A DNA stretch of 64,000 bases, taken from sequence record PZ534511.1; one strand, written 5' to 3'. The stretch is from a phage. Below the pieces are notes generated by a model. It saw nothing but the letters and a program-made list of their open reading frames with translations, ran no database searches and had not been told where the DNA came from. Of this stretch, positions 2,450-39,035 are shown one piece after another. The first letter of the stretch is position 1; every line of letters begins with the position of its first letter. A program made the position numbers and the translations under genes.

Positions 2450-2854
2450 TTATTTAAACGGCTGGCCCACATATTTTCTATTCCTCTCAAATAAGCGATC
2501 CGCCTCAGTTAAACAAATCTCATGGGCGTGATCTCTGGTTTTAGCTTCATCGAAAACCTGTTGTGCAAGGCTGCAACGTAGGGAGACTGGAAGATCACTA
2601 TAATAGGCGTTGACAAACGTTTGAGCGTCGTACAGGTCTGAAAATACTTTACCCTTTCTATTATTCCCCTTGTCAACAATTGCAAGGATAACCAATACAA
2701 TAGTTGCAACCACCCCCAGGAAAATAGATATAATAAACCATAAAAAGGCGGATCTTCCCATCTTGCCAGCGATCCAGGCGTTAAACAAGGCAACCAATAC
2801 AGCCAAAATAATAAATTCCATTCTATGTACCTCTTTTACAGTTCTGATTAACAA
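2450..2854 (-). CDS. hypothetical membrane protein
   Basis: Track ORF; two predicted TM segments (FIILAVLVALFNAWIAG, FLWFIISIFLGVVATIVLVILAIV); probable start at MEFIIL. Confidence 0.5.
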   Translation of the reverse strand: MLIRTVKEVHRMEFIILAVLVALFNAWIAGKMGRSAFLWFIISIFLGVVATIVLVILAIVDKGNNRKGKVFSDLYDAQTFVNAYYSDLPVSLRCSLAQQVFDEAKTRDHAHEICLTEADRLFERNRKYVGQPFK

Positions 2855-2885
2855 TAAGGCGGCAAATATGCCGCCTGTTACCTGA

Positions 2886-3266
2886 TTAAAAATTATCGCC
2901 GTAAATCTTTCCGCTTTCTACCCATACCACCACGCGAGGCATACTATCCCACACGTCTTGTTTTAGATTGAGCGCGTGCAATTCTTCGGTGGTGCTCATA
3001 CCGGGCACGGGCTGATTGTATACTGCAAAACGACCACCCGCATAATCATAGGCTAGAGTTAAATCACACTGGATCATCTTTTTGATCATGGCATTAAGCA
3101 TGGCGTTAGCCGCATACTGATCACGTTTTAAAGGCAACTCTTTGATTAGTTTGCGATAGTTTTCGATATGGTCGCACACTGTTTCACGCGGAAGATCTTT
3201 CATATCCTCGCGAAAGGTAACCAGGTTAAACATAACGGTGTCAATAGCTTTAGTAGTGTTTTTCAT
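2886..3266 (-). CDS. hypothetical protein
   Basis: Track ORF 126 aa; RBS AGAGGAAAAC; promoter TTGCAA-16-TATATT at 3321-3348. Confidence 0.55.
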   Translation of the reverse strand: MKNTTKAIDTVMFNLVTFREDMKDLPRETVCDHIENYRKLIKELPLKRDQYAANAMLNAMIKKMIQCDLTLAYDYAGGRFAVYNQPVPGMSTTEELHALNLKQDVWDSMPRVVVWVESGKIYGDNF

Positions 3267-9250: not shown

Positions 9251-9583
9251 TTAAGGTAACCAGTAAACAATTTCGCCTTTCAGTTCCATGTCGTTACCGA
9301 CATAGATTTTCCAGCCATCCATTTTAGCCACTGCAGGAGTGAAGTCCGAAGAACCACTAACCTCTTTCCAAGTCCCGTAGTCAGGTTGCCAGATATAGAA
9401 TCCACCTTCCTTGTCCCATGCTCCATATACCACATCGAGCAGGTTGCCCATTGCAACAATAGTAGGCCGTGGGAATAATACATCTACAGATGCGCCACAA
9501 TTTCGGGTATCTTTTAAGTTGCAATCCCAAAAGATGTCTGCCAGTGTGGCGGCGATAGCTTTACGTCTTTCCAATGTTACCAT
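9251..9583 (-). CDS. hypothetical protein
   Basis: Track ORF 110 aa. Confidence 0.45.
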   Translation of the reverse strand: MVTLERRKAIAATLADIFWDCNLKDTRNCGASVDVLFPRPTIVAMGNLLDVVYGAWDKEGGFYIWQPDYGTWKEVSGSSDFTPAVAKMDGWKIYVGNDMELKGEIVYWLP

Positions 9584-9593
9584 GGCACGATAC

Positions 9594-9785
9594 TCACTTG
9601 TTGTTAATAAGTTCTAAAACTTTCTGTCTTACTTTGTCAAGGTCTGTGGATTCAAAAACTGCACGATATCCCCAACTTTGCCCATAGGAGTGACTGCAAT
9701 CCCCGTAGCACCATTGCTCAATTTGATAGTATTCAAGGAACGGGTGCTGTCTAACTATGATACCATCCCGGTTAAAAATTACCAT
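9594..9785 (-). CDS. hypothetical small protein
   Basis: Track ORF 63 aa. Confidence 0.35.
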   Translation of the reverse strand: MVIFNRDGIIVRQHPFLEYYQIEQWCYGDCSHSYGQSWGYRAVFESTDLDKVRQKVLELINNK

Positions 9786-9848
9786 AATACATCACCCTCT
9801 GTTAGTTTATGCGTATATTATACACTGCAGTTTTCAGATGTCAACCTC

Positions 9849-10100
9849 TTACAGATTGCTCCAGTACAATCGGCATTTACATTTTGGGCAATGAGGTTCT
9901 TTTATGTAGTAACCGTCAGTCTTTGGAACACTTTTTGGTGCAGTTTTAAGATTGTACCTGGTAAAACATCGGAAGCAGGTTACCTCTCCCACCTGTTGAT
10001 CGTTGATCCACTCACCGGAGTAAAGTTCTTTCTTGTTTCTCATAATTCTCTCCCAAATCCTCTGCAATCTTATACCAAAATCTCCAGCCAGAAAGCACAC
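9849..10100 (-). CDS. hypothetical zinc-ribbon protein
   Basis: Track ORF; paired Cys motifs CFRCF ... CPKCKC. Confidence 0.45.
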   Translation of the reverse strand: MCFLAGDFGIRLQRIWERIMRNKKELYSGEWINDQQVGEVTCFRCFTRYNLKTAPKSVPKTDGYYIKEPHCPKCKCRLYWSNL

Positions 10101-10294
10101 GGGAACACTTTGAGGATTGAATCTTTACTTGGCTCGGAAGTTCTTTTTCCGTATGGTAGGTAGAAATACCCTCCTGCAGATTCGAATATAGCTCCTTCGG
10201 TTGTATCTACCACAGCAAGAATTAAGATTTTAGTCTCCACAGTGCTCTCCTCTCTTAGTTGTCGTGGAAACTATATCACCTCAGAAGATGGTCG

Positions 10295-10834
10295 TCAACA
10301 CTTTTTGTACTCCACCACGACAATATCTATGTCGAAAGTGGCAAGGTTAATAACGTCCTCTACGTGTTCCAACTTCAAACCGCCTATGCCGCACCCGATC
10401 TTAGGGATGTAGAATGGTAAAGTCGATCCGCTGAATACTTCATTGACTAGCTCAAAGCCTTTCAGGATTGAGAAATACTCAGCATTAGGTCCTGGGTAGA
10501 ACTGGGTATATAGATTGATTCCGTAGACAATACCTATCGGAGATAAGTGCTCCCATCGGGAGAACGCACCCAGTTTACTTAGGCAACCGTATCTAGTCTC
10601 TTTGTCGGCTGACAGTGCTTGAGGAAACTCACGGGCAATCTGTTTTGCTATACCCTTGCCCATTGTGTGGAAGCAGTTACAACCGTGGATCAGGTGACCA
10701 GCACCACTCTTAAAAAGGGAGATTAAATCTCCCTCTACAGTATCAATAATCACGGTAAGCCAGCTCCTCTTCCGCAATTTCAAAAAACTCAGTCCAGCAC
10801 TGTGGCATATTGGAGTTACCGAAGTGGCTTTCAT
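10295..10834 (-). CDS. macro-domain protein (ADP-ribose binding/hydrolase fold); probable GTG start near 10747
   Basis: Motif GAGHLIHGCNCFHTMGKGIAKQIAREFP resembles the macro-domain N-terminal Gly-rich signature; AAGAGGAG RBS precedes an in-frame GTG that overlaps the upstream stop (GTGATTATTGA). Confidence 0.55.
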   Translation of the reverse strand: MKATSVTPICHSAGLSFLKLRKRSWLTVIIDTVEGDLISLFKSGAGHLIHGCNCFHTMGKGIAKQIAREFPQALSADKETRYGCLSKLGAFSRWEHLSPIGIVYGINLYTQFYPGPNAEYFSILKGFELVNEVFSGSTLPFYIPKIGCGIGGLKLEHVEDVINLATFDIDIVVVEYKKC

Positions 10835-11168
10835 AGTAAAGGTTCTTACCGCTAGGAAGGTAGAAATCTGTTACCTCATAAAATCCACAATCGTCGCACT
10901 CACCTTCTTCAAACTTGGCCTTAACCTTAATACCGAGGAAGGTGAAAAGTTTATGGACATCTTCAGTTTCGAACTCCCAGGGAATGTTGTTTTCCGCATC
11001 GGTGTAGAACTGGATCAGCAGACCATTGTCCAGTTTACCAAAATACTCTGTGAAGTAACTTCCTTCCCAGAAATCTTTATGACAAATAATATCCATGCGT
11101 TTGCCCATAATAATGGTGTGAGCGTTTTGGGCATCGTCACGAATCAGTTTTGGCATTTCATAGATCAT
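10743..11168 (-). CDS. hypothetical protein
   Basis: Track ORF 141 aa; stop overlaps the proposed macro-domain start. Confidence 0.5.
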   Translation of the reverse strand: MIYEMPKLIRDDAQNAHTIIMGKRMDIICHKDFWEGSYFTEYFGKLDNGLLIQFYTDAENNIPWEFETEDVHKLFTFLGIKVKAKFEEGECDDCGFYEVTDFYLPSGKNLYYESHFGNSNMPQCWTEFFEIAEEELAYRDY

Positions 11169-11236
11169 CTTAGTTCTCCGGGTTCAACAGGTGGTGGTGC
11201 TACAGGAAGATCATAAAACATGGCTATCACAGTCTC

Positions 11237-11434
11237 TTACACAGGAATTGCTTCAAATAGACCGTTATCTATACCGTCCTTCAGATAGAGATTATATTCT
11301 ATGTCGGTATCTGTATAAAGGGCAGCATCCAGCATTCTATCTGTGAGTCCATCCATCGGGTGGAGAAACCACCACCCACGCCAGTCAAAGTAACAGCCTG
11401 GTGCATCTTCTCTTACACGGATTCGATAAATCAT
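11237..11434 (-). CDS. hypothetical small protein
   Basis: Track ORF 65 aa. Confidence 0.35.
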   Translation of the reverse strand: MIYRIRVREDAPGCYFDWRGWWFLHPMDGLTDRMLDAALYTDTDIEYNLYLKDGIDNGLFEAIPV

Positions 11435-11530
11435 GGGCAGTGGCCTCCTGTTAGTTATACATCCCAGTTTTCTTCGTTCATCACGTCCTCCCGTTCTATG
11501 AAGTTATAATTACACACCTTTCAACTTGTG

Positions 11531-11947
11531 TCAACAGAAAACTTCAACAAATTCTTCCACAGTTTTAATGTCGTGGGAAAAAGGTTTACGGCTATAACGG
11601 GCAATAGCACTATCAACCACCGCCCGGTACTCCAAATCTTCAGAATATTTCATGAAGCATTGCAGCGTCTCTGGGCAGATAGCTAAATAGCTCCACCACC
11701 CCTCTTCAGATTGGTAGTCGAATCCCATACTCTCCAACCATGAAGCATATACGCCTGCACCTTCAAGCCAGTGAGTATTTTCATCCAGAAACTTGTTAAT
11801 AGACATGTGAGCTTCTAAGCATTTATCCAGCTCTTTTCCGTTAACCAGCCATGCACTGACTGTGGCGCATCCAAGGTCTACAGATTGAGTTGACAGGTTG
11901 TATTGGTCATAGTTCTCAGGTTTAACAATGATATCTTCTAATGTCAT
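11531..11947 (-). CDS. hypothetical protein
   Basis: Track ORF 138 aa; RBS AAGGAGATCTGAAAA. Confidence 0.5.
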   Translation of the reverse strand: MTLEDIIVKPENYDQYNLSTQSVDLGCATVSAWLVNGKELDKCLEAHMSINKFLDENTHWLEGAGVYASWLESMGFDYQSEEGWWSYLAICPETLQCFMKYSEDLEYRAVVDSAIARYSRKPFSHDIKTVEEFVEVFC

Positions 11948-11961
11948 TTTTCAGATCTCCT

Positions 11962-11995
11962 TATACAAAAATGCCCCACCATTTCGGGCAGGGCT
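11962..11995 (-). terminator. rho-independent terminator (minus strand)
   Basis: Minus-strand hairpin GCCCTGCCCGAAATGGTGGGGC followed by ATTTTTGTAT; G-U wobbles make the stem minus-strand specific. Confidence 0.55.
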
Positions 11996-12009
11996 ATGTT
12001 AACTAGATG

Positions 12010-12588
12010 TTAGAAGTATTCATAGAGGTATCCATCGGGAGCTGGAATTTTTTCATGAATGTAGTAACCAACATATATTCCGGTTTCTCTGCTGCAAGAG
12101 TTGTGGGATACCCACTCTTTAAGAACGTTGCCATTCATGTCCAACCTCCTTACATTTTTGCACCGTCTACCGCTGGTGCTTCTATGTAACAAAATATCCT
12201 CTGTCTGCTTGTCTTTATTTTCTCCCCAGGTCGTTAAACGGATATTATCAAAAGAGTACCCTTTGAAATCATCTATCCTGTCACAAGAAGGCTTTTTCCT
12301 TTTGTCGTATCCGCTGGCTACCCACTGATCATACAACTCTTTGTAACCGTTCAGGTATAGCCACTCCTTAAACTCTTTTTTGGTGTAAGTCGGAGGAGGG
12401 TGACCTCTTTGCTTGCTGTTGCACTTTTGAGTCTTGTACAACACACGTATTACACCTTTTTCTGAAGAGTCTTTAGCAAATTGGTCAGCCTCCCTGCTGG
12501 CCTTCTTACAGCACTCTTTGCACGTTGATTTGTTGCTGGTATAGAAGTCGGAGGCCTCCTTGTCCTCCCCACAACGTTTGCATTTCAT
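12010..12588 (-). CDS. putative homing-endonuclease-like protein (zinc finger plus degenerate HNH-like motif)
   Basis: N-terminal CKRCG..TCKECC; PSCDRIDDFKGYSFDNIRLTTWGEN resembles an HNH core with His replaced; free-standing between replication genes. Confidence 0.4.
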   Translation of the reverse strand: MKCKRCGEDKEASDFYTSNKSTCKECCKKASREADQFAKDSSEKGVIRVLYKTQKCNSKQRGHPPPTYTKKEFKEWLYLNGYKELYDQWVASGYDKRKKPSCDRIDDFKGYSFDNIRLTTWGENKDKQTEDILLHRSTSGRRCKNVRRLDMNGNVLKEWVSHNSCSRETGIYVGYYIHEKIPAPDGYLYEYF

Positions 12589-12596
12589 AACTGACC

Positions 12597-13823
12597 TTAG
12601 AAAGGGATCGAGTCATCGAACTCATACTGCGCCGGATTCTGATCCATCGGGTCATCTTCCTCATCATTTACAGGAGGAGCGTCTATAGTGTTTTGCTGTG
12701 GAGCAGCTTCCTGCTTGGCAGCTTGAGGTTCTTGATGGTCAGTGGACCCAGCACCGTTCTTGATCCAATCGTACAACGGCTCAGCCAGATTAGTCAAGAC
12801 ATCTTTTGCTTCTGCAGTAATTGCCGCTGCAAAATCCTCAACTTTCGTTTTCTTGTCAATACGGCGACAAGCGTTCAACACCGCATTACCGACACTGGCA
12901 CCTACTTCATCTTCGGTTCGGTTGGTGGCTTGAGCATACTCTTTCTTAAGCTCAATGGTGACTACGTGCAGTGTTTTAGCCACACCTAGTGGGTCGTCTA
13001 CCTTAAACCCGCGATCCAGGATGATTTGCAACGCGTTGATGCTATGTCCCGTCTCCACACCAATAGGGTCGTAAGAGGATTTACGCTTGCCACCAGAGCC
13101 TTGAGTGCCGTTCTCTGCCTTAGGGGGATAGGCTTTGAAACCACTGATAATGTTTCCGGTGTCTTTGTCAACAATGGCTGCAACACGACCACCTACCACC
13201 AGGTCTTTAAGCTGCTCATCAGTTACAACCATAGCACCTTCGCCAATCTTGTGGTCATTAACAGTAACCACGTTGCCAACAATCTGAGTCACATCGCCAT
13301 AGATGCGTAAAACGTCCTGATTGGCATTCTGCTGAGGTTTCTGCTTCTGGCCTTGTGATTGTGCACCTTGTTGCTGTTTTTGCTGCTGAGTCGCTGCTGG
13401 AGCCTCTCCTGCACCCAGCTTGACCATCTTAGCCAGTGAGCCTTTGTAATAGGTCTTACCGTTATGCTCGTTTGCCTTCAAAGGGATATTTACGATCCAT
13501 CCCGGCGTTACGGTTTCCCACTTGTCATCAATTTTAACAGAGACAGAGTCTTGATGACCAGGTTTAAGCAGCTTATCACCCATGCTGATCCAAACTTCTT
13601 CACCACCTTGAAGCAGGTTATCAGAGGAATCCAGTTCAGAAATCAGTAAAGAGATGGTGTGGCTGGATTCAATTTTCTTACCTTGCCACACAGTGGTTTT
13701 AATACCTGTTGTAGGATCAGCACCTTTGATAGGCTTGATGCTGACACGTTTAATCATGCCGTGAGCCAGTAAAACAGTTTCACGCGGATTCATCGGGTTA
13801 GCGAATTGTTGAATAACGCTCAT
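12597..13823 (-). CDS. single-stranded DNA-binding protein-like with acidic C-terminal tail
   Basis: C-terminus YEFDDSIPF matches the canonical SSB acidic tail ending in IPF; Gln-rich linker; location in the replication module. Confidence 0.6.
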   Translation of the reverse strand: MSVIQQFANPMNPRETVLLAHGMIKRVSIKPIKGADPTTGIKTTVWQGKKIESSHTISLLISELDSSDNLLQGGEEVWISMGDKLLKPGHQDSVSVKIDDKWETVTPGWIVNIPLKANEHNGKTYYKGSLAKMVKLGAGEAPAATQQQKQQQGAQSQGQKQKPQQNANQDVLRIYGDVTQIVGNVVTVNDHKIGEGAMVVTDEQLKDLVVGGRVAAIVDKDTGNIISGFKAYPPKAENGTQGSGGKRKSSYDPIGVETGHSINALQIILDRGFKVDDPLGVAKTLHVVTIELKKEYAQATNRTEDEVGASVGNAVLNACRRIDKKTKVEDFAAAITAEAKDVLTNLAEPLYDWIKNGAGSTDHQEPQAAKQEAAPQQNTIDAPPVNDEEDDPMDQNPAQYEFDDSIPF

Positions 13824-16671: not shown

Positions 16672-17042
16672 TGATCGGTCTCCTTCTTGTTAAGTCTGAA
16701 TACTGCAATAATAGCATTCCCAAGGTGCAGTGTCAAATCATTTCCAAGATACCACAACATTCCACGGTCATCTTTAATGAAAGGGTAACAATCTGGTGCC
16801 TTCCAGACATTGTACACTTTCCCAACCTGAAAGAAATCAGGCCCTGTTGGGATTTTGGTGCCAGGCCACACTTGAGATACCTGAACACACTCCACCTGCA
16901 TAATAACAGGAATAGTCATGGATGTAAATGTTTTTGTTGGTTCTACTACCATAAAAGTCTCCTCTTTGCTCAACAACACTTCCATGTGTTGATAGTTTAC
17001 ATTAGTGACAATCACCCCAATTACGACCACACAAGTATTCAC
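16668..17042 (-). CDS. hypothetical protein, paralogue family B
   Basis: C-terminal half matches family B; overlaps the end of DNA polymerase exon 2. Confidence 0.45.
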   Translation of the reverse strand: MNTCVVVIGVIVTNVNYQHMEVLLSKEETFMVVEPTKTFTSMTIPVIMQVECVQVSQVWPGTKIPTGPDFFQVGKVYNVWKAPDCYPFIKDDRGMLWYLGNDLTLHLGNAIIAVFRLNKKETDQ

Positions 17043-17355
17043 CTGTGATCTGGAACGGGACTCCCATCATTTTAGAAGCTTGCCAGAAGCAATGCACCAC
17101 CATTTCACCCACAGGGCTCCAGATAAGTTCAAGCTTTCCGTCATCGTTCAGGATAGGATCGTACACCGTGTTTCCGTCTCTGTCAACCACTTCGTTTCCG
17201 TCCTCATCCTTGCGTGCCTTTTTGTACTTATGACCGTCGAACACATGAAGTTTGGCTTCCTGCTCTGCCTTAAATGCTTCCAATTCTTCAATTGTGTCGA
17301 AGGTGTACACAGTCTTATACTTAGGCGTGTCAGGGACCTGAAGTTGGTACTCATC
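17002..17355 (-). CDS. DNA polymerase (family A), exon 2 (C-terminal part carrying the DE of motif C)
   Basis: Begins GAU GAG (DEYQLQV...), which joined to exon 1 ...YYH gives HDEYQLQV, matching T7 gp5 motif C VHDEIQV; C-terminus GRNWGDCH matches T7 gp5 GPNWAICH. Confidence 0.75.
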   Translation of the reverse strand, partial: DEYQLQVPDTPKYKTVYTFDTIEELEAFKAEQEAKLHVFDGHKYKKARKDEDGNEVVDRDGNTVYDPILNDDGKLELIWSPVGEMVVHCFWQASKMMGVPFQITGEYLCGRNWGDCH

Positions 17356-18198
17356 CATCTGTTCAGGTAGGTCGTTAAGCTACCCCGCACCATTACGTGC
17401 ATAGCCATACAGTTTCCTGTATGGATCGGACTACCTCACTGCCTTGGTAACAAGGCACCTCCCATTTCGACCGCACTTGCTGGCCTACTCTACTCGCTTC
17501 TTCACACCAACCTGTGTTGGAGCTATGCTTTCGATAGTCTCTGAACGTTACTACCAGGTGTAGTTTTTAGAGATATGTTTCCACTGTCTTCTTTGCTTTA
17601 TAGCCCTGACGGTCTCATAAGGATATCCAAGATCCCTAATCTCGCATTGTCGTAGACCACTCTGCAACAGTTCGCAAATCTCTATTACCTCATCTTCTGT
17701 CAGCACAGCGTTGGCATTATACTCACCAACTGGCCTTACTCTGAGGTCATTATCATAGGCGTGCTTGATATTTCCACCAGGGGTGGTCCATTCCAGGTTC
17801 CAGTATGCATTGTTGTACTTATTCCCATCCTTATGGTTCACCCATGTGAGCCTTTCAGGATCCGGGTTTGATACAAAGCATTCAGCAACCAGGTGGTGGA
17901 CACCTTTTGTGCACTGCTTCCCCTCGATTAGCATGGTTACGCAAAGGTAACCTCTACCATTATCAAAACAAAACATTGTTGTATGATCACGTTTCGATAA
18001 AGGTATTGTTCCATCATCAAACACGGTATACCCGTGATAATCAGCTGTTCTAGCCATTTTAACTACACCCCTTTAGTCTTCGCTGCGGATTAGCATATTG
18101 AGCTTTTACCATACTCAGGTGTAAAAGTCAACTTAGCTTTCCCGTCAATTAAAGAGGTTATTCGACATAGATCACTCTATGAAGCCACAATGTTATTT
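17356..18198 (-). mobile_element. group I self-splicing intron interrupting the DNA polymerase gene, with HNH homing endonuclease ORF in the P6 region
   Basis: Minus-strand RNA carries conserved elements P (AAUUGACGGGAAAG, 18137-18150), Q (AAUCCGCAGC, 18082-18091), R (GUUCAGAGACUA, 17535-17546), S (UAGUCC, 17428-17433), and a P9-like hairpin with GAAA loop (17406-17424); 5' exon ends in U, with GUGG available as guide sequence; intron ends in G. Confidence 0.75.
17551..18057 (-). CDS. HNH homing endonuclease (intron-encoded)
   Basis: Motif WVNHKDGNKYNNAYWNLEW (HNH core); C-terminal helix-turn-helix-like region; lies between intron elements Q and R. Confidence 0.8.
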   Translation of the reverse strand: MARTADYHGYTVFDDGTIPLSKRDHTTMFCFDNGRGYLCVTMLIEGKQCTKGVHHLVAECFVSNPDPERLTWVNHKDGNKYNNAYWNLEWTTPGGNIKHAYDNDLRVRPVGEYNANAVLTEDEVIEICELLQSGLRQCEIRDLGYPYETVRAIKQRRQWKHISKNYTW

Positions 18199-20622
18199 AT
18201 GGTAATAGATAATACGACGGACACCTTCATCGTACCACCCACGCTTCACCATTTGGTGGTGCATGAGTATCCCAACTAAGTCACACAGCGATGCACCACC
18301 ATTCTGTTGGTATGCATTAAGTAAAGAGTGTTTAGATCGGGTCCAGATAGCATGACCATCAAAAGAGTAGATAAACTTCTTACCCGTTGCTTCCCAGAAT
18401 TTCTCCAGATCCTCTTTACGCCCCTTAAGACCAGGGTTGGCATCCCAAAGTGCATCGATTACCCTTTGTCCCAACTCTGGAGAGATGTCCAGCATATCTG
18501 CAACTTTATCTTTTTGTGCCCCGTACATAACCCCATACGTGATAGGTTTACCGTCGTTACGAGACACCTCTCTGCCTGCTACTTTTGTATATGCCTCAGC
18601 ATTGTTTTGGTGTGCGTCCCCGTTACTTACAACATCATAATACAAGCCGTTGTCGAACTCAAAGGCACCCCAAGCCCCGATAAGCTGCTCTAAGTTGGAC
18701 CCGTCAATACCGATCTGAAAGTATCCAGGAGGAACACCCCACAGACTACGCATCTCTTTACCCATAACCACTTTAGGAGATGGTTTAGGCATGTTTGCAC
18801 AAATACTGTGTTTCTGTCGTGAAGTGTTTGTTAACCCAGAACTTTTAGCAGGAAGCTTATGGTCAATCTTCAAACGTGGGTGATTAAGAAGACCAGTATC
18901 AACCTTATCCTCCTTGATTGGATCAAGGACCGATCTGCGGTTTCGCAATGATAACCACAAGACGATATCTTTAGCCATCTCTCCGTTCAATTTTTCAAGA
19001 TTCGGGCATAGGTGTCCAAACGTATCTTTCAGTTGCGGAGAAGTAATAAGTGCCCTAGCTTTTCTACGTATTTTCCCGAATACTTCCTTTTTAATCCTTT
19101 CGGAGTTAGGAAAGCTTCGGAACTTGTGCACGGTTGTCTGGAACTTAGCATCAGTTTTGTTCCAGAAGTTGATAATCAGGTCACAATACTCTGACTCTAA
19201 AAGCTCGTCCATATATGCATATACTCGTGCATCAACATCTGCATCAGGTAGAGCTTTCTTCTTGCTGTCTTTAGTTACATCCTTAGTTCTCCACATTGTC
19301 GGAAGCCAACCAGCACTGATCAGGTATCGCTTAATGTCGTCCTGGTTGCTGATTTTCATAGGTATCTTGCAGTCCGGCATTCGCTTCTGCTGTAGATCAC
19401 TTATTGCCTGATCCATTAGCTCTTTAGGTAAAGGTTGTGGTGTGGAGGTGCCCTTAATATAGCCTCTCAAGAAATCAGCCATCTTATCGGGGTCTTTGCA
19501 GCCCATCTCTTCACACCATTTTATCCCTATCTTACTGACATCTCCTGTAGAGGTAAATGCTCGCTTAGGTGGGGCTTTGAACTCTAAAGCGCTCATGTCT
19601 ACAGGGTAGCCAAGCTTATCTTTTAACCATTTCCAGCCATTATTGGAAATTGTCCCATCTTGGTTGAACGGCTTTTCAGGGAATTTAGGCCGCTGAGATA
19701 TTGATAACTCTTTTAAAGGAAGTTGAGGTTCAACACGATCAGCGATCTCTTTCATCCACGCATCACAGCGGTCACGTAAAGCAATAGCCCCGTCTATGTC
19801 GAAATACACACCCTGACGGGCCTGCAGCTCCATCAGGAAGTGCTGCAGCATGCCTCGGCGTAATGCGTTCTTCCAGGTGATCTTCTTGAACCCTTTCGGC
19901 TTCTCTTTGGCAGGATCGTACATAAAGTTCTGCATGTCAGATTTGCCGTAGAATACACCTTTTGATTCCGCTACCAGCTCTTTCCAGAGCAGCTCCTGGA
20001 TGATAACGTCCTCGAATACACGATCCACATACTTCCACAACGGAAGATCGCGCCAGTCATCAATTTGAACTTTCTGGTTACCAAGGGCGTAGCCCCATGC
20101 CATAAGGCCGTGAGGACCAACAGGCTGCATTTTCTTAGTAACCGGGTTGAATACAGAGTCCGGACAACCTTTTGGTAAAGGGCGATCAGGCCACAAAATT
20201 CGACTCATCGCCAACGTATCAAACAGGTTAACCTGGTGGTCGTTGATAGTCCCCATGCATTTAGGATCACGGAACATATCAAAATGAATACCGGATAATC
20301 TTTCCATCAGCATAAAGTCATAACTGTAGCAGTTATGGCAGTTCAAAGCTGTTGGTGACCAGTCGGAATTGCCTGTAAGCCAACCTTCCAACTCCGAAAA
20401 ATCTGCTATGCGAACTTCAAAATCTTTATAAAGAGTTTTCTTTGCCAGAATGAAGTTCTTGGCCTTTTCTATATCCTCCTCGGAGTAGTGTGTGCGGTCA
20501 TTTAGAGGAAGGAACAGCATAAAACGGTTCTTATTCAGCTCTTTAAACAGACCGCAGTGATAATAAAGATCTGGGTCTTCCAAAAGCCCAGAGGCCTCCA
20601 GATCGAAGCACCAATTACTCAT
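18199..20622 (-). CDS. DNA polymerase (family A, T7 gp5-like), exon 1 with 3'-5' exonuclease and polymerase motifs A/B
   Basis: N-terminal FDLEASGL (Exo I, DxE); motif B RNDGKPITYGVMYGAQ; ORF stops 2 codons after ...YYH, before motif C, which is supplied by exon 2. Confidence 0.8.
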
Positions 20623-21353
20623 ACTGTCCCCTCCTGTTTCTTCTCAGCATTCTTTCTTGCAGCTATTGCATCGTCCCTATTCTTGAAATACCCAAGGCAT
20701 TTCCTTTTACCATCTACATAAATTCTGGCTACCCATCTTTCATGGGTTTTATCCCAATTCACCCCTGAGCAACCGCTGGTATTATTATACTGCACGGCTC
20801 TTCCACTCTTGTGCGAAAAACCATTATCTTCGAAGAACTTTCTTGCCCACTCTGCCTCTTCAAAAGTTCTGTACTGGCCTAGCCAGACCCTTTCCCCTAC
20901 AGAGTCTGTGCCTTGAGCTATCCATGCATCTCTTTCTTCAGAATAGTGCACCCCGACCCTGCCAGATTTGTTGTTGCTACGAGGTATCTTGCAACTTTTC
21001 TTTTTGTTATCTGTGGGCTCGAGTAGTTGCAAATTTTGAATACTGTTATCAGCCACACCACCTGTTTCCCTTATCTCCTTGATGTGGTCAACCTCATACC
21101 CTTCCGGTACAGGGCCGTTAAACATTTCCCAGATTATGACGTGGGCACCTTTAGTGCAATGCTTTCCTAGACTAACTACAGGCCTGCCATCAGCATCTTG
21201 CCCCTTGTCAGCTCTGGAGCCTGCTGAAGTTTTAACATATCCTACACCGCTACCTGCCAGAATGTCTATCTTCCAAAAAAGATTTTGACCGTCATACTCC
21301 AGTATCTCTGACCACAGGTGGTTGGCTACACAGTGGTCTCTGAACTCGTTCAT
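20619..21353 (-). CDS. HNH endonuclease with C-terminal AP2 DNA-binding domain (free-standing homing endonuclease)
   Basis: HNH core GYEVDHIKEI..NSIQNLQLL; C-terminal AP2-like segment VGVHYSEERDAWIAQ..WLGQYRTFEEAEWARKF; 4 nt overlap with the polymerase start. Confidence 0.75.
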   Translation of the reverse strand: MNEFRDHCVANHLWSEILEYDGQNLFWKIDILAGSGVGYVKTSAGSRADKGQDADGRPVVSLGKHCTKGAHVIIWEMFNGPVPEGYEVDHIKEIRETGGVADNSIQNLQLLEPTDNKKKSCKIPRSNNKSGRVGVHYSEERDAWIAQGTDSVGERVWLGQYRTFEEAEWARKFFEDNGFSHKSGRAVQYNNTSGCSGVNWDKTHERWVARIYVDGKRKCLGYFKNRDDAIAARKNAEKKQEGTV

Positions 21354-32347: not shown

Positions 32348-32776
32348 TTAATCGTAGTGTGCCAAAATCTCTCCATCGTTGCAAGTTCCCTCTACAAAGT
32401 TATGAAGATTCATGCACTCATCTTGATAGAAGAATTTACCGCTTTTCAGCCGTAGGCCAAACAACTCCGCATCTCCACGATGGCAAGCCTCTACAAGTTC
32501 ATAGATTTCATACGGCAACTCTCCGTCGTCATGGAAGAATCCAGCCTTATCGTTGACATAAATGAAGAAATAATCACTGCTATCGCAAGCGTCCAATATT
32601 TTAAACCAGACTTCATCTACATCTTTTTCTCGGATATCGATCACGCAAGTGGAGCTGCATTCGTACTCCTTCTCCGGCTCCTCGGTCAATACCACCAGGT
32701 AGTTTCCCCGCTTACCTACTTTAGCCATACAACCCCCCTTAAGCTTTAGCCAAAATGGCGCTAAACTCTTCACCAA
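32348..32776 (-). CDS. hypothetical protein
   Basis: Track ORF 142 aa. Confidence 0.45.
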   Translation of the reverse strand: MVKSLAPFWLKLKGGCMAKVGKRGNYLVVLTEEPEKEYECSSTCVIDIREKDVDEVWFKILDACDSSDYFFIYVNDKAGFFHDDGELPYEIYELVEACHRGDAELFGLRLKSGKFFYQDECMNLHNFVEGTCNDGEILAHYD

Positions 32777-33923
32777 ACTCTTTTACAATCTTCATCAGGT
32801 TTGGGTATGCTTTGATCAGCTGAGCAACAATCTTGTCACGCCCTTTACCGATAAGCAAGGCATTTCCTAAGGCATTAGGTTTCATCATCGCCATAAAGAC
32901 TGAGAATACAAAATCTCGGTTCTCGTCCTTGAAGTTTTCCCAAAGGAAATCGAGGAAGTTTGCCACGCAGCTGACAAGATCTTCGTCTGAGATACTTGCA
33001 TTTTCCATCATATTGCGAATAGCGATACAACCTTCAGATCCAAGAATCCACAAAATGTCTGGCTGCTTAGGACCTACGTATTCTTTGCAGCCACCTGCCA
33101 TAATCCGACCGATTTCCGGTAAATTACGTTTCTTGGTGTGGTAAGTCCAGATCTCTACCGCTGCAGTGTGACCAATAGCACCTTGTAGAAGAACACGGGC
33201 CATAGCGTCAGAAATAATACCGCTGTCAAAATCGTGCAAGATGTCAGATGCAGCAACCCAAGATCGTGGTGTGGCAAAAGATGGACAATTAATCTCAGCC
33301 ATAGCCTCATAATTATCAATAGCTGATGGAACTCTTTTCAGATACCCAATTACAGAGGAGTGAACCCCGTTGAGGAATGCGTAGTCCTCAATAAACACCT
33401 CTGCATTGCTTGTAACCTCTACAATGATAAAACGGTTAGCCAGAGGGGCTTCGAGCGCCGAAAGAACCGCACCATCTGTAGAACGGTTACCCGCAGCCAC
33501 AAAAACAGAACCTTTAGGGAATGCATAGGTGCCGCACTTGTGGTCAAGCATAATTTGCATTGCAACCTTTTGCAGGTAGTTATCTGCATGAGTGAGCTCA
33601 TCCAGAAAGATAATTCCGCTCCAGTCAGGATCCGCAGGCCAAAATTCTGGAATTGCAAACACTGTACGTGTAGTTCCATCCGCTTCTACAGGGATAGGTA
33701 GCCCAGATAAGTCGGCAGGATCTTTATCTGACAGTCGCACGTCAACAAGGTTGTCATCTCGCTCACCGAACATATTATCAGCGATCTGCTTCATCACCTG
33801 GCTTTTACCCACACCCATTGGTCCCAAAATTAGGACAGATCGGCTATGACGTTGGGCAAACTGAATAATAGCTGGCAACTCACGGACAGTGATTTGACCA
33901 CTTTCGAATACGTTTCTTGACAT
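32739..33923 (-). CDS. MoxR-like AAA+ ATPase
   Basis: Walker A ILGPMGVGKSQ; Walker B IIFLDELTHAD; size about 390 aa. Confidence 0.65.
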   Translation of the reverse strand: MSRNVFESGQITVRELPAIIQFAQRHSRSVLILGPMGVGKSQVMKQIADNMFGERDDNLVDVRLSDKDPADLSGLPIPVEADGTTRTVFAIPEFWPADPDWSGIIFLDELTHADNYLQKVAMQIMLDHKCGTYAFPKGSVFVAAGNRSTDGAVLSALEAPLANRFIIVEVTSNAEVFIEDYAFLNGVHSSVIGYLKRVPSAIDNYEAMAEINCPSFATPRSWVAASDILHDFDSGIISDAMARVLLQGAIGHTAAVEIWTYHTKKRNLPEIGRIMAGGCKEYVGPKQPDILWILGSEGCIAIRNMMENASISDEDLVSCVANFLDFLWENFKDENRDFVFSVFMAMMKPNALGNALLIGKGRDKIVAQLIKAYPNLMKIVKEFGEEFSAILAKA

Positions 33924-36497: not shown

Positions 36498-37541
36498 TTG
36501 ATGTTGACATCTGTTGAGACAATTGATACGATTTCTTCACTTACAGAGCACGAGAGACGACTCATGAATCTTGAAAAATATTATACACCAGAAGAGTTAG
36601 AGCGCTTGCTCAAAAAATATAGACGCAAACAGAATAACGCACGGAAACGAGATATAGAGTTCGACCTGTCATGGGAAGAATACCTCCTATTTGGTAAAAA
36701 ACTTTTAGGAGATGGAGTATGCGACTATACCCTTATACCTTTTGACATGCACACAGATGAAAACGGGCTGGGGAATCCTTTCTACCCATCTCTGGAGCGG
36801 ATAGATGATGAAGGTCCTTATGCGGCTGATAACTGTTGTGTGGTGGGATTGAGATGCAACTCTCTAAAGGACTGTCTGGTAGATAAAAAGACTGCAGTCT
36901 TGATTAAAGACGAAACTGATCGAAAAATTGTCCAGCAGATGATGCTCCACCTGAGCGAAGAGCGTATGGAGAAATTGAAAGGTGATTATACTTTTGAAGA
37001 TTTCATCTTGCAATATGGAACGGAAGAGGATAAACTAGCACTCTTTGACGAAGAAGAGGAGGAAGATATGCTACCGATGTCTAAAGTTACTTATCGTGCA
37101 CCCAAGAAGCACATTTCCGACATTGTAAACGAGCCTATCACAGAAGAGATTGAAGAAATGACGCAACAGGTGCATGAAGAGGAAAAAGAGACTCAGGAGG
37201 TCGAAGAGGAGCTTACAGAAGAGGTTCCTGCACTACCTGATGATGTTGAGATTGCCAAAGCTTACACTTTCTATTGTCAAACGTTCTACGATGTAGGTAT
37301 GAAAGTTGATCTGTCATTCAGCCAATTTAAGAGTTCGTATATTCGCAAATGCTGTGCTTTAACTGGTGAACGTCTTGGAGCTGGACTTAAACCCCTGTTG
37401 GTGACCGACTGGAATAAAGGTTTCACTAAAGGAAACTTTATGGTAGTATCTCCAATTATGGAGAAAGCTATGACAGATCTTATGAAGACCACCCGCATGA
37501 CAATGACCGAGTTGGCAGGTATTTTCAAACACGTTAAATAA
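36498..37541 (+). CDS. protein with two tandem degenerate HNH/endonuclease VII-like domains (probable true start about 36564, MNLEKYY...)
   Basis: Internal duplication (DLSWEEY..GVCDYT.. and DLSFSQF..CCALTG..); CxxC..N..CN..K-like remnants; track start is TTG inside the promoter; contains internal MSKVTYRA start-like repeat. Confidence 0.4.
   Translation: MMLTSVETIDTISSLTEHERRLMNLEKYYTPEELERLLKKYRRKQNNARKRDIEFDLSWEEYLLFGKKLLGDGVCDYTLIPFDMHTDENGLGNPFYPSLERIDDEGPYAADNCCVVGLRCNSLKDCLVDKKTAVLIKDETDRKIVQQMMLHLSEERMEKLKGDYTFEDFILQYGTEEDKLALFDEEEEEDMLPMSKVTYRAPKKHISDIVNEPITEEIEEMTQQVHEEEKETQEVEEELTEEVPALPDDVEIAKAYTFYCQTFYDVGMKVDLSFSQFKSSYIRKCCALTGERLGAGLKPLLVTDWNKGFTKGNFMVVSPIMEKAMTDLMKTTRMTMTELAGIFKHVK
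36504..36532 (+). promoter_or_regulatory. sigma70-like promoter (TTGACA-17-TACGAT) driving the plus-strand island
   Basis: Hexamers read directly; overlaps the first codons of the over-extended track ORF. Confidence 0.5.
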
Positions 37542-37553
37542 TGACAGGGGCCA

Positions 37554-39035
37554 ATGGCCCCTTCTGGAGTTTTAATGGATAGCAGAAGTTCAGAAATCAT
37601 TGCCTCGCAGAAAGATGATGCCCTGAGAATGTTGCAGGCTGCACGTATGTATCTCCTTGAAAAGCTGCCGTTTTATGGCACACTACTGTCAGGGTTGCAG
37701 TTCGTAGAAAACCACACATGGTGCTCCACCATGGCAACCGACCATAAACGCATCTACTACAGCCCTGAGTTCATTATGGGGTTGGCGGATGAGCGTAAAA
37801 CCATTCTTAAAGCATCTCTGACTGACAAGCAGTTTGAGATGGCTGAGGTTTTCTATTCCCCAAAATCTGTGAAAGAGGTGGCCTTTCTTCTGTCACATGA
37901 GGTGGGGCATATTATCTGTGATCATCTGGTCCGTGGTAAAAGCTTTGAGCCGGAACTGTTCAATATTGCTTGTGATCACGTTATCAACACAGGTCTTGTG
38001 GTTGACTTTAGCAAGCCTCCTTGTGTTTTCTTCCCGAAGGGGAAAAGCACTGAGTTCGTAAAAGGTAAGCCTTTTGGCTTCTTAGCTAATTGCTACTGCG
38101 ACATGAGGTTTCATGGATGGATTGCTGAGAACGTCTATGCAGTTCTTGATAAACAAAGAGATCAGAATGGCGGTAAAAGTAAGAACGGTAAAGGTGAGAA
38201 CTCCCAAGGAGATAAACGACAAACCGATGATCACATGAGCGGGAACGGTGGCACTAGTGATGATCTTGGAAAGGCTATGGGGTATGATCAGCCGCAACCA
38301 GTAATCAGTCAATCTGACAAAGATCAGGCCATGCAGGACTCTGGTGACATGTTGGAAGCAGCAATGCAAGCTTCAGGAGGTCGTTGCCCCGAGGCGGTGC
38401 GCGAGTTTGTCAAAAACAGAGGCAAGCCTGTAATCAATTATATAGATATTATTAAGCAACGTATGTTATCTAAAAGAAAGGCTGAGTTAACCTACAGAAA
38501 ACCTGGTCGCCGATCTGGGTCTTTGACCACCACAATGCGAAAAGTTGGAGCTATAAACAAGAATCAACACGTTATTGTTCCTGGTCGTAATCCGGAAAAC
38601 ACTATAGATATTGTAGTGGCTTTAGACGTTTCTGGGTCGATCTCACAAAGAACTTTAAAGAAAATGTTCAATGAGATCACCGGGTTGTGCAATTTGTATA
38701 AAGAGTTTAAGGTTACTATGTTCTGTTGGTCAACGGAGGTTGGAGAGGTTAAAGTATACACTCGCGGTAACATCGATGAGATGATTAACTATGAGGTCCA
38801 CTCAACATGGGGCACAACAGCCGCCTGCGTGTTCGAGTATCTGGATGCTAACATACCGAATGCAAAAGATGTCATCGTCCTTACCGACCTCTACTTTGAG
38901 CATAACTTTGAACAAAAGGCTGTTGACAACAAGTGGAAAAAGTACGATACTTTATGGGTTCTCACCGAAGGGTATAATAAAAATTATATCCCGAGCTTTG
39001 GGAAAACTGTGGAATTAATCGAGTACGCTAAGTAA
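37554..39035 (+). CDS. VWA-domain protein with N-terminal HExxH metallopeptidase-like motif
   Basis: HEVGHIICDH motif near residue 115; MIDAS motif VALDVSGSIS in the C-terminal half. Confidence 0.6.
   Translation: MAPSGVLMDSRSSEIIASQKDDALRMLQAARMYLLEKLPFYGTLLSGLQFVENHTWCSTMATDHKRIYYSPEFIMGLADERKTILKASLTDKQFEMAEVFYSPKSVKEVAFLLSHEVGHIICDHLVRGKSFEPELFNIACDHVINTGLVVDFSKPPCVFFPKGKSTEFVKGKPFGFLANCYCDMRFHGWIAENVYAVLDKQRDQNGGKSKNGKGENSQGDKRQTDDHMSGNGGTSDDLGKAMGYDQPQPVISQSDKDQAMQDSGDMLEAAMQASGGRCPEAVREFVKNRGKPVINYIDIIKQRMLSKRKAELTYRKPGRRSGSLTTTMRKVGAINKNQHVIVPGRNPENTIDIVVALDVSGSISQRTLKKMFNEITGLCNLYKEFKVTMFCWSTEVGEVKVYTRGNIDEMINYEVHSTWGTTAACVFEYLDANIPNAKDVIVLTDLYFEHNFEQKAVDNKWKKYDTLWVLTEGYNKNYIPSFGKTVELIEYAK

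What the first reader, a model, noticed from the sequence alone, without database searches (positions are those of the whole stretch)
10295..10834. Phage-encoded macro-domain protein, a candidate counter-defence enzyme against ADP-ribosylation-based immunity
The ORF carries a macro-domain-like signature (GAGHLIHGCNCFHTMGKGIAKQIA). Macro domains bind or hydrolyse ADP-ribose adducts. A phage copy could reverse host ADP-ribosylation of DNA or proteins (DarT-like toxins) or degrade ADP-ribose-derived signals. It appears translationally coupled to the upstream gene through an overlapping GTG start, in a cluster of small genes of unknown function.
Basis: inference. Interest (0 to 1): 0.65.

Follow-up and report, generated by a model that had tools for sequence, protein, structure and literature searches.

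The report
Phage anti-DarT macrodomain (Tk.4/AdfM-type)
This rV5-like E. coli phage carries a small, well-conserved macrodomain enzyme, a relative of phage T4 Tk.4 (AdfM), that most likely strips ADP-ribose off phage DNA to defeat the bacterial DarTG2 defence. It is a real but fairly ordinary member of a very widespread phage family.

Summary
The window is a Vequintavirus (rV5-like E. coli myophage). On the minus strand it encodes a 152-aa protein, 10295..10753. It starts at a GTG that overlaps the upstream gene's stop by 11 nt; the ATG at 10834 is not the start.

It is a full-length homolog of T4 Tk.4 (39% identity). A 2025 preprint named Tk.4 AdfM, the factor T4 needs to plate on DarTG2 hosts. 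Homologs occur in 2,725 phage records.

The DarG/TARG1 catalytic lysine is an invariant glutamine here (NLYTQ). SCO6735 has the same glutamine, needs it, and removes thymine-linked ADP-ribose from DNA. PhiKZ AdfM keeps the lysine. Some relatives are fused to NADAR domains, the guanine-ADP-ribose erasers.

The apparent Bas54 ortholog (matched by gene order only) is non-essential on E. coli K-12.

I rate it a new member of a known kind, of modest interest. Activity and anti-DarTG2 function in this phage are untested.

The parts
10295..10753 (-). Coding sequence of the 152-aa single-domain macrodomain protein (Tk.4/AdfM-type); GTG start, TGA stop at 10297..10295
   Evidence: ORF list and sequence. 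The same gene model is annotated in related phages. Pfam, PHROG, NCBIfam and PADLOC hits. AlphaFold2 model with pLDDT 96.4.
10743..10753 (-). 11-nt overlap GTGATTATTGA between the macrodomain start codon and the stop codon of the upstream gene, giving possible translational coupling
   Evidence: Read directly from the sequence. The same overlap is annotated in HdK5, O157 typing phage 14, APECc02 and Bas48-50.
10764..10768 (-). Shine-Dalgarno-like AGGAG, 10 nt upstream of the GTG start and inside the upstream gene
   Evidence: Sequence. The ribosome-binding function is inferred.
10634..10705 (-). It holds H23-G24-C25-N26 and the M31-G32-K33-G34 glycine loop. N26 aligns to DarG N22. H23, N26 and K33 align to SCO6735 H24, N27 and K34.
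   Evidence: Translation. Family invariants G24, N26, C27, G34. Alignments to PDB chains.
10502..10516 (-). N80-L-Y82-T83-Q84, the invariant NxYTQ motif. Q84 occupies the position of the catalytic Lys of DarG (K80), TARG1 (K84) and PhiKZ AdfM (K78), and of the essential Gln85 of SCO6735.
   Evidence: Translation. Invariance across 89 family members. Alignments. Role of SCO6735 Q85 (PMC9411070).
10379..10405 (-). P117-K-I-G-C-G-I-G-G125, the second glycine-rich loop that binds the diphosphate in macrodomains. G124 sits where TARG1 has the catalytic Asp125.
   Evidence: Translation. Family invariants P117, G120, G122, G125. Alignment.
10743..11168 (-). Upstream, overlapping gene (141 aa, PHROG 8157, function unknown). 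Co-transcribed neighbour; no evidence of a functional link with the macrodomain.
11973..11994 (-). Terminator-like hairpin plus T-run upstream of the gene block 11947..9849(-) that contains the macrodomain gene; a likely boundary of the transcription unit
   Evidence: Pattern scan. A terminator is annotated at the equivalent site in HdK5.

Best explanation
The gene encodes a stand-alone, catalytically competent macrodomain of the TARG1/DarG/SCO6735 ('ALC1-like') class. It belongs to the phage Tk.4 family, named AdfM in T4.

Proposed mechanism:
1. When an E. coli host carries a DarTG2 toxin-antitoxin defence, infection releases DarT2. DarT2 uses NAD+ to put ADP-ribose on thymine in single-stranded phage DNA, which blocks replication.
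2. The phage enzyme is made from the leftward block of small accessory genes.
3. It binds the ADP-ribose through its two glycine-rich loops and hydrolyses the thymine N3-ribose bond, restoring normal DNA so that replication proceeds.

The chemistry is probably that of SCO6735, not of DarG. There is no lysine nucleophile. The invariant Gln84 positions the substrate and a water network.

Shown here: the gene and its start, the fold and class, family membership, the Gln-for-Lys active site, and fusions of relatives to NADAR.

Inferred: the enzymatic activity, the DNA-thymine substrate, and the anti-DarTG2 role in this phage.
For: - Profile hits against PDB sequences: 9e-16 to 4e-13 for the best chain of each of these five proteins. 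DarG models hit over the macro part only: NCBIfam 4.4e-10 and PADLOC 9.4e-11.
- Homology to T4 Tk.4: 39% identity, 63% positives, E = 1e-39, end to end. Both belong to one family with invariant G8, G24, N26, C27, G34, N80, Y82, Q84, P117, G120.
- T4 Tk.4 was the single significant hit of a transposon screen on a DarTG2 host, and a clean knockout sensitised T4 to DarTG2 (preprint 10.1101/2025.11.20.689424).
- Q84 aligns to SCO6735 Gln85. SCO6735 Q85A and Q85E are inactive. The wild-type enzyme removes thymidine-linked ADP-ribose from DNA and rescues cells from DarT (PMC9411070).
- Four multi-domain relatives that keep the same motifs are fused to NADAR, the guanine-ADP-ribose DNA hydrolase domain of DarG1 and AdfN. 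This links the clade to reversal of base ADP-ribosylation.
- The apparent ortholog bas54_0092, identified by gene order and gene lengths only, took insertions at 31 of 31 TA sites and is non-essential on E. coli K-12. That fits an accessory, conditionally needed gene.
Against: - No assay exists for any Vequintavirus protein. The link rests on 39% identity to T4 Tk.4 and on one preprint.
- The catalytic Lys of DarG/TARG1 and the Asp of TARG1 are absent: Q84 and G124.
- The SCO6735 DNA-contact residue K89 and its long mobile loop are also absent. Activity on DNA therefore cannot simply be transferred from SCO6735.
- The family is about equally distant from DarG, TARG1, SCO6735/BT1257 and Poa1p, at 50-61 bits. 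Members of this class also act on proteins, on uracil in RNA, and on ADP-ribose-1''-phosphate (PMC9411070; PMC13036486).
- bas54_0092 was not depleted (log2FC +0.42, adjusted p 1.0) in the one host-comparison table row retrieved. I did not identify that host or its DarTG2 status.
- Whether DarTG2 restricts rV5-like phages at all is unknown. I found no such data.
Confidence: 0.6

Rival explanations
1. It is an active hydrolase of the same class, but its main substrate is not DarT2-modified DNA. It might remove ADP-ribose from uracil in RNA, or from Asp/Glu on proteins, and so counter other host ADP-ribosyltransferase defences or toxins.
For: TARG1, DarG and SCO6735 all reverse uracil-linked ADP-ribose on ssRNA (PMC13036486). 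SCO6735 and TARG1 also act on proteins (PMC9411070). The family is equidistant from all class members. Cellular members in Hyphomicrobiaceae sit between genes that look like ileS and lspA (identified by eye, not scanned) with no conserved DarT-sized neighbour among the clustered ORFs, so the family is not tied to DarT.
Against: The only genetic phenotype known for the family is specific to DarTG2. No bacterial anti-phage system that ADP-ribosylates uracil or acidic residues is known to restrict these phages. CmdT-type adenine modification of RNA is described as irreversible.
Confidence: 0.17
2. It processes small ADP-ribose derivatives rather than macromolecules. Candidates are ADP-ribose-1''-phosphate (the 'phosphatase' annotation), O-acetyl-ADP-ribose, and immune signals such as His-ADPR or cyclic ADPR isomers. 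It could service the phage's own sirtuin and RNA-repair genes, or blunt Thoeris-type signalling.
Against: The 'phosphatase' label traces to the old A1pp domain name, not to an assay (note). The profile alignment to Poa1p is unreliable across the catalytic strand. T4 has Tk.4 but its phenotype is DarTG2-specific. The gene is not adjacent to any NAD or RNA-repair gene in this window.
Confidence: 0.13
3. It acts without catalysis, either as a stoichiometric DarT2 binder and inhibitor or as an ADP-ribose-binding module or sponge.
For: Catalytically dead SCO6735 Q85A, DarG K80A and TARG1 K84A still inhibit DarT in vitro, with SCO6735 the strongest (PMC9411070). The catalytic Lys is missing here.
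Against: Every residue shown to matter for SCO6735 catalysis that can be aligned is present (H23, N26, K33, Q84), and Q84 is invariant in 89 of 89 sequences. That is the pattern expected of an enzyme. The protein also lacks the C-terminal DarT-binding domain of DarG.
Confidence: 0.05

Closest known systems
T4 Tk.4 = AdfM (anti-DarT factor macrodomain), preprint 10.1101/2025.11.20.689424
   Same: Same family (PHROG 335). Single-domain phage protein of about 150 aa. 39% identity over the full length. Identical HGCNCFHTMG and NLYTQ-PGPN motifs. Non-essential in the laboratory host.
   Different: Different phage lineage (Vequintavirus versus Tequatrovirus) and different neighbours: T4 has vs upstream and tk.3 downstream. 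It has K33 and C121 where T4 has S and A. It is closer (67.5%) to the gene at the tk.4 position of Krischvirus phiS. The anti-DarTG2 phenotype is shown only for T4.
Streptomyces coelicolor SCO6735 (PDB 5E3B) and Bacteroides BT1257 (2FG1/2AFC)
   Same: Same macrodomain class. Gln at the position of the DarG/TARG1 catalytic Lys. Equivalents of H24, N27 and K34 are present. No DarT partner gene. SCO6735 removes thymine- and uracil-linked ADP-ribose.
   Different: About 22% identity. The phage protein lacks the longer loop after the Gln and the K89 contact. It has Y82-T83 where SCO6735 has I-G, and GIGG where SCO6735 has GLAGG. SCO6735 is cellular, not viral.
DarG antitoxin macrodomain of DarTG2 (PDB 5M3I, 5M31/5M3E, 7OMU)
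   Different: The catalytic K80 is Gln. There is no C-terminal DarT-binding domain and no adjacent darT. NCBIfam equivalog score is 39 bits against a cut-off of 250.
Chimallivirus AdfM (PhiKZ gp104), Cell Rep 2026, PMC13309987
   Same: Phage-encoded stand-alone macrodomain that removes DarT2-made ADP-ribose from DNA. Same class.
   Different: Only about 20% identity (BLASTP E = 8e-5; hhalign probability 97.5%). PhiKZ keeps the DarG-type PTK lysine (K78), whereas this family has YTQ. PhiKZ gp104 is imported into the phage nucleus, which rV5-like phages are not known to form (my background knowledge, not checked here).
Human TARG1 (OARD1; PDB 4J5R/4J5S)
   Same: Best Foldseek hit (TM 0.78-0.85). 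Shares the PxIGCG loop.
   Different: The TARG1 catalytic dyad K84/D125 is replaced by Q84/G124.
AdfN / DarG1 NADAR hydrolases (T4 gp30.3), PMC11825919
   Same: Analogous 'orphan antitoxin' logic: a phage-borne eraser of DarT-made DNA ADP-ribosylation. Some relatives of this macrodomain are fused to NADAR in one polypeptide.
   Different: Unrelated fold. NADAR is specific for guanine adducts made by DarT1 and does not counter DarTG2.

Membership tests
Macro domain superfamily (Pfam PF01661) | Profile match above the curated threshold | tested here: met
   24.9 bits against a cut-off of 22, but only profile positions 1-31 aligned. Most family members carry PF01661 in precomputed annotation.
Macro domain superfamily (Pfam PF01661) | Three-layer alpha/beta/alpha macro fold | tested here: met
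Macro domain superfamily (Pfam PF01661) | Two glycine-rich loops that hold the ADP-ribose diphosphate and distal ribose | tested here: met
   M31-G-K-G34 and G120-C-G-I-G-G125, with G34, G120, G122 and G125 invariant or nearly so in the family.
Macro domain superfamily (Pfam PF01661) | Binds ADP-ribose | not testable with these tools
   Needs ITC, a thermal-shift assay or a crystal structure.
ALC1-like / TARG1-like macrodomain class | Closest structural neighbours are TARG1, DarG, Poa1p and SCO6735, clearly ahead of the MacroD-like, PARG-like and macroH2A-like classes | tested here: met
ALC1-like / TARG1-like macrodomain class | Catalytic lysine (TARG1 K84, DarG K80) | tested here: not met
   Gln84, invariant in 89 of 89 family sequences.
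ALC1-like / TARG1-like macrodomain class | TARG1 catalytic Asp125 | tested here: not met
   Gly124 at the aligned position. DarG also has Gly there.
DarG antitoxin of DarTG2 | NCBIfam equivalog score of at least 250 bits | tested here: not met
   39.3 bits, covering only the macro part, model positions 3-141 of 338.
DarG antitoxin of DarTG2 | C-terminal DarT-binding domain | tested here: not met
   The protein ends at residue 152, just after the last macro-fold strand.
DarG antitoxin of DarTG2 | Adjacent darT toxin gene | tested here: not met
   Of the flanking genes, three upstream ones (10743..11168, 11531..11947, 12597..13823) were scanned against PADLOC with no hit. The neighbours scanned with Pfam gave no hit apart from a phage zinc-binding domain (PF23903) in 9849..10100, and all have PHROG families of unknown function. 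The small genes 11237..11434 and 9594..9785 were scanned with PHROGs only.
AdfM, T4 Tk.4 type | Full-length sequence homology to T4 Tk.4 with shared invariant motifs | tested here: met
   39% identity, E = 1e-39, residues 1-150 against 1-152. Both fall in PHROG 335 and alignment A1.
AdfM, T4 Tk.4 type | Phage-encoded, single domain, dispensable without the defence system | tested here: met
   152 aa with one domain. bas54_0092 has the same gene length and the same neighbour order and lengths as the window gene, took insertions at 31 of 31 TA sites, and is called non-essential. Orthology is inferred from gene order, not from sequence.
AdfM, T4 Tk.4 type | Required for plating on a DarTG2 host | not testable with these tools
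   Shown only for T4.
AdfM, T4 Tk.4 type | [quoted passage not shown] | not testable with these tools
   Not yet shown even for T4 Tk.4. It is shown for PhiKZ AdfM and for SCO6735.
Gln-type hydrolases (SCO6735 / BT1257) | Glutamine at the catalytic-lysine position, plus H24, N27 and K34 equivalents | tested here: met
   Q84, H23, N26 and K33.
Gln-type hydrolases (SCO6735 / BT1257) | K89 DNA-phosphate contact and the extended mobile loop after the Gln | tested here: not met
   The phage family has a short PGPN turn. The aligned residue is G88 and the loop is 5-6 residues shorter.
AdfM, chimallivirus (PhiKZ gp104) type | DarG-like active site N23 + K78 and close similarity to DarG2 | tested here: not met
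   The Asn is conserved, but the Lys is Gln. There is 20% identity to gp104.
Poa1p-like ADP-ribose-1''-phosphatase (source of the 'phosphatase' label) | Poa1p catalytic residues and phosphatase activity | tested here: inconclusive

The most novel reading that the evidence does not exclude
The Tk.4-type phage macrodomains, including this one, may form a mechanistically separate, lysine-free (Gln-dependent, water-activated) lineage of nucleic-acid de-ADP-ribosylases with a broader reach than DarG. They might erase thymine adducts on DNA and uracil adducts on RNA, and perhaps soluble ADP-ribose signals. In that case one small gene, found in 2,725 phage records here, would disarm several ADP-ribosyltransferase-based defences, some not yet discovered. 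The macro-NADAR fusions would then be all-in-one erasers for T/U and G/C adducts.
Probability: 0.15. Interest if true: 0.55.

Novelty: new member of a known kind. Interest (0 to 1): 0.3.

Why it matters
If confirmed, rV5-like phages, which are often proposed for therapy and biocontrol of E. coli, would carry a ready-made countermeasure to DarTG2. That helps explain and predict their host range.

The comparative point is of some wider use. Two unrelated lineages currently share the name AdfM: a lysine-type one (PhiKZ, DarG-like) and a glutamine-type one (T4 Tk.4, this phage, SCO6735-like). The two should differ in chemistry and possibly in substrate range, and the Gln84 mutant is an obvious test.

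Otherwise this is a well-populated family, with homologs in 2,725 phage records. The gene is already labelled 'macro domain protein' in several GenBank entries.

Tried and rejected
1. The 179-aa ORF from ATG 10834 as the gene. Rejected: it would overlap the upstream gene by 92 nt, all homologs are about 150 aa, and the T4 alignment starts at the GTG.
3. The Poa1p catalytic-residue comparison. The profile alignment was unreliable in the central region, so I dropped it.
4. A DarT neighbour, or a prophage origin, for cellular homologs. 39 loci were fetched. In Hyphomicrobiaceae the conserved neighbours look like ileS, lspA and an M16 peptidase (identified by eye), and in Rhodobacterales like a hydrolase. 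No conserved DarT-sized neighbour cluster appeared. The search used only two exact peptide patterns, so the sample is biased.
5. A link to phage NAD+ salvage genes in the window. The ORFs at 36498..39035 that I suspected are not Prs/NAMPT. One is a DUF2201 metallopeptidase/VWA protein and the other has no Pfam hit.
6. A first attempt to scan genomes with the 88-sequence alignment failed for lack of a conserved stretch.
7. Literature on DarTG2 against Vequintavirinae. Nothing beyond the two papers cited. LeRoux et al. 2022 is not held in the library.
8. An Rfam scan of the whole window found no RNA family, and there are no tRNAs.

Full report
**Source of the window and the gene model.** Window 9500-12000 is 98-99% identical to many Vequintavirus genomes, the rV5-like E. 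coli myophages such as naswa, APECc02, HdK5 and BASEL Bas48-50. The finding's coordinates match an ORF on the minus strand, 10295..10834, which is 179 aa if read from the furthest ATG. Reading the minus strand shows ...GAAGAGGAGCTGGCTTACCGTGATTATTGATACT.... This contains a GTG at 10753..10751, preceded at 10 nt by AGGAG. The GTG overlaps the TGA stop (10745..10743) of the upstream gene 10743..11168 by 11 nt. The resulting 459-nt, 152-aa gene is exactly what is annotated in HdK5, O157 typing phage 14, APECc02 and Bas48/49/50. Its first residue aligns with the first residue of T4 Tk.4.

**It is a macrodomain of a specific class.** Pfam Macro is just above threshold (24.9 against 22 bits) and covers only the N-terminal motif. 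Deeper evidence is strong:
- PHROG 335 at 2.6e-57.
- A family profile built from 89 sequences hits BT1257, DarG, SCO6735, TARG1 and Poa1p at 1e-15 to 4e-13.
- An AlphaFold2 model built on 88 homologs has pLDDT 96.4 and pTM 0.91.
- Foldseek ranks TARG1, Poa1p and DarG first.

This places the protein in the ALC1-like/TARG1-like class. Several tested members of that class (TARG1, DarG, SCO6735) remove ADP-ribose from thymine in DNA and from uracil in RNA (PMC9411070; PMC13036486).

**Family and its known function.** tblastn finds relatives in 2,725 of 50,697 phage records. These include T4-like phages, where the hit is gene tk.4. The direct comparison with T4 Tk.4 gives 39% identity and 63% positives over the whole length, E = 1e-39. 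The gene at the tk.4 position of Krischvirus phiS is much closer, at 67.5%. A full profile search finds 1,321 cluster representatives at E <= 1e-30 and 18,350 at E <= 0.001.

Function comes from the literature. A 2025 preprint found tk.4 as the single T4 gene depleted on a DarTG2 host. It showed that a clean knockout sensitises T4 and named the gene adfM (10.1101/2025.11.20.689424). This explains why T4 lacking adfA and adfN remained DarTG2-resistant (PMC11825919). Independently, a chimallivirus macrodomain, PhiKZ gp104, was also named AdfM and was shown to remove DarT2-made ADP-ribose from DNA (PMC13309987).

**Active site: Gln in place of the catalytic Lys.** The family has ten invariant positions: G8, G24, N26, C27, G34, N80, Y82, Q84, P117 and G120. 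In both the HMMER and MAFFT alignments, Q84 falls on DarG K80 and TARG1 K84, and on Gln of SCO6735 and BT1257. TARG1 D125 corresponds to G124. I fetched PhiKZ gp104 and compared it directly. It shares about 20% identity (hhalign probability 97.5%) and has PTK where this family has YTQ. The two proteins called AdfM therefore belong to different lineages with different catalytic residues.

The Gln version is not a dead enzyme. In SCO6735, Q85A and Q85E abolish activity, and the wild type is the most efficient of the three enzymes on dT-ADP-ribose DNA and protects cells from DarT. The authors propose a water-mediated mechanism (PMC9411070). The phage protein also has equivalents of SCO6735 H24, N27 and K34 (H23, N26, K33). 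It lacks K89 and the longer mobile loop.

**Context and associations.** The gene lies in a long leftward block of small genes of unknown function, downstream of rIIA-rIIB-helicase-methylases-primase-DNA polymerase. A terminator-like hairpin at 11994..11973 precedes the local group 11947..9849, and sigma-70-like promoter matches are scattered through it. The promoter scan is only mildly enriched, 18 found against 11.3 +/- 3.5 expected, so I do not lean on it.

The upstream overlapping gene is not a conserved partner. It occurs only in Vequintavirus and Krischvirus, and in Krischvirus phiS the gene directly upstream of the macro gene is a different one. Its structure could not be modelled reliably.

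Cellular homologs fetched from genomes show no conserved DarT-sized neighbour among the clustered ORFs. In Hyphomicrobiaceae the gene sits between ORFs that look like ileS and lspA, identified by eye. So, like SCO6735, the family consists of 'orphan' erasers.

Among multi-domain relatives that retain HGCNC...NxYTQ...IGCG, four are fused to NADAR domains and two to DUF4326. NADAR is the guanine-ADP-ribose DNA hydrolase of DarG1 and AdfN. A macro-NADAR polypeptide would be expected to erase both kinds of DarT product, which supports a role in reversing base ADP-ribosylation.

In Bas54, gene bas54_0092 has the same length (459 nt), the same 11-nt overlap, and the same neighbour order and lengths. 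It took transposon insertions at all 31 TA sites and is called non-essential on K-12. That is what one expects of a conditionally needed counter-defence gene. The orthology is inferred from gene order, not from sequence.

**Mechanism proposed.** DarT2 ADP-ribosylates thymine in phage ssDNA. The phage enzyme binds the adduct through its glycine loops and hydrolyses the N-glycosidic bond with Gln84-assisted water chemistry. This restores replication. I put about 0.9 on 'active TARG1-class ADP-ribosyl hydrolase' and about 0.6 on 'its selected role is anti-DarTG2'.

The rivals are:
- other macromolecular substrates, such as RNA uracil or protein Asp/Glu (0.17);
- small ADP-ribose derivatives or immune signals, the origin of the 'phosphatase' and 'Poa1p-like' labels (0.13);
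- non-catalytic inhibition or binding (0.05).

None can be excluded without assays. The class is known to be promiscuous, and the profile is equidistant from DarG, TARG1, SCO6735 and Poa1p.

**Novelty.** The gene is already labelled 'macro domain protein', 'Poa1p-like' or 'phosphatase' in several GenBank records, although many, including the BASEL records, still say 'hypothetical protein'. Macro domains are reported in 41% of myoviruses (PMC9503650), and the family's anti-DarTG2 role is now documented for T4.

This is a new, untested member of a known kind. The modest additions from this analysis are:
- the Gln-type active site shared with SCO6735 and distinct from PhiKZ AdfM and DarG;
- the macro-NADAR fusions;
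- the closer kinship with Krischvirus Tk.4.

Interest: 0.3.

Noticed in passing
window 12010..12588 (-): A 192-aa ORF with a Cys-rich N-terminus matches PHROG 1035 'endonuclease VII' and HNH-type endonuclease families but no Pfam model. It sits between the terminator at 11994..11973 and gene 12597..13823. It is absent at that site in APECc02 and HdK5, but Bas54 has a 'putative homing endonuclease' there. It is probably a mobile homing endonuclease.
   Followed up: partly
window 20619..21353 (-): A 244-aa HNH_3 + AP2 protein lies between the DNA polymerase and the primase/helicase genes. It is absent from APECc02 and Bas54, so it is a second lineage-specific homing-endonuclease insertion.
   Followed up: partly
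window 17002..20622 (-): The DNA polymerase is split into an 809-aa piece (18193..20622) and a 118-aa C-terminal piece (17002..17358), separated by a free-standing 168-aa ORF (17551..18057), whose APECc02 counterpart is annotated 'HNH endonuclease'. Bas54 has one 925-aa polymerase gene. No Rfam group I or II intron was detected.
   Followed up: partly
window 32739..33923 (-): A 394-aa ORF with a weak AAA hit matches, in length and position, bas54_0063 (annotated MoxR ATPase). HIDEN-SEQ found that gene to be required to overcome the predicted defence system DS-28 (log2FC -7.2). So a validated counter-defence gene probably lies in this window. Orthology is inferred from gene order only.
   Followed up: partly
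window 37554..39035 (+) and 36498..37541 (+): A 493-aa protein with a DUF2201 putative metallopeptidase domain plus a VWA-like domain, preceded by a 347-aa ORF with no Pfam hit. These are on the opposite strand to most genes of the window.
   Followed up: no
proteins P0138, P0203, P0222, P0248, P0145 (relatives found): Tk.4-type macrodomains occur fused to one or two NADAR domains and/or DUF4326. P0248 also weakly matches Pfam Phage_30_3, named after T4 gp30.3, which the literature identifies as AdfN. These look like combined thymine- and guanine-ADP-ribose erasers.
   Followed up: partly
loci L006, L009, L010, L015, L017, L019, L024, L031, L039, L043: In Hyphomicrobiaceae and related alphaproteobacteria, a chromosomal homolog of this macrodomain sits just downstream of an ORF that looks like ileS, in most of these loci followed by one that looks like lspA (identified by eye). 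This is a housekeeping context with no conserved DarT-sized neighbour among the clustered ORFs.
   Followed up: partly
L005 (Krischvirus phiS) 2501..2956: The gene at the tk.4 position, between vs and tk, of an RB49-like phage is 67.5% identical to the Vequintavirus protein, against 39% for T4 Tk.4. This suggests gene exchange between rV5-like and RB49-like phages.
   Followed up: partly
public records matched by window 9500..12000: Sixteen GenBank records named 'Campylobacter phage' (for example MG065659 and MG065677, mostly unannotated) are 96-98% identical at protein level to this E. coli Vequintavirus region. They may be mislabelled or contaminated deposits.
   Followed up: no
protein P0017 (121 aa): One database protein matches both the C-terminus of the upstream gene (100% over 39% of it) and the macrodomain (86% over 47% of it). 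This is probably a frameshifted or mis-called gene across the 11-nt overlap in another phage assembly.
   Followed up: no
window 9817..9844 (-) and 10270..10298 (-): A perfect sigma-70 consensus (TTGACA-16-TATAAT) lies downstream of the zinc-binding-domain gene 9849..10100. A TTGACG-17-TATAGT match with an extended TG overlaps the macrodomain stop codon. Both are consistent with host-RNA-polymerase (early) transcription of this block, but this is untested.
   Followed up: no
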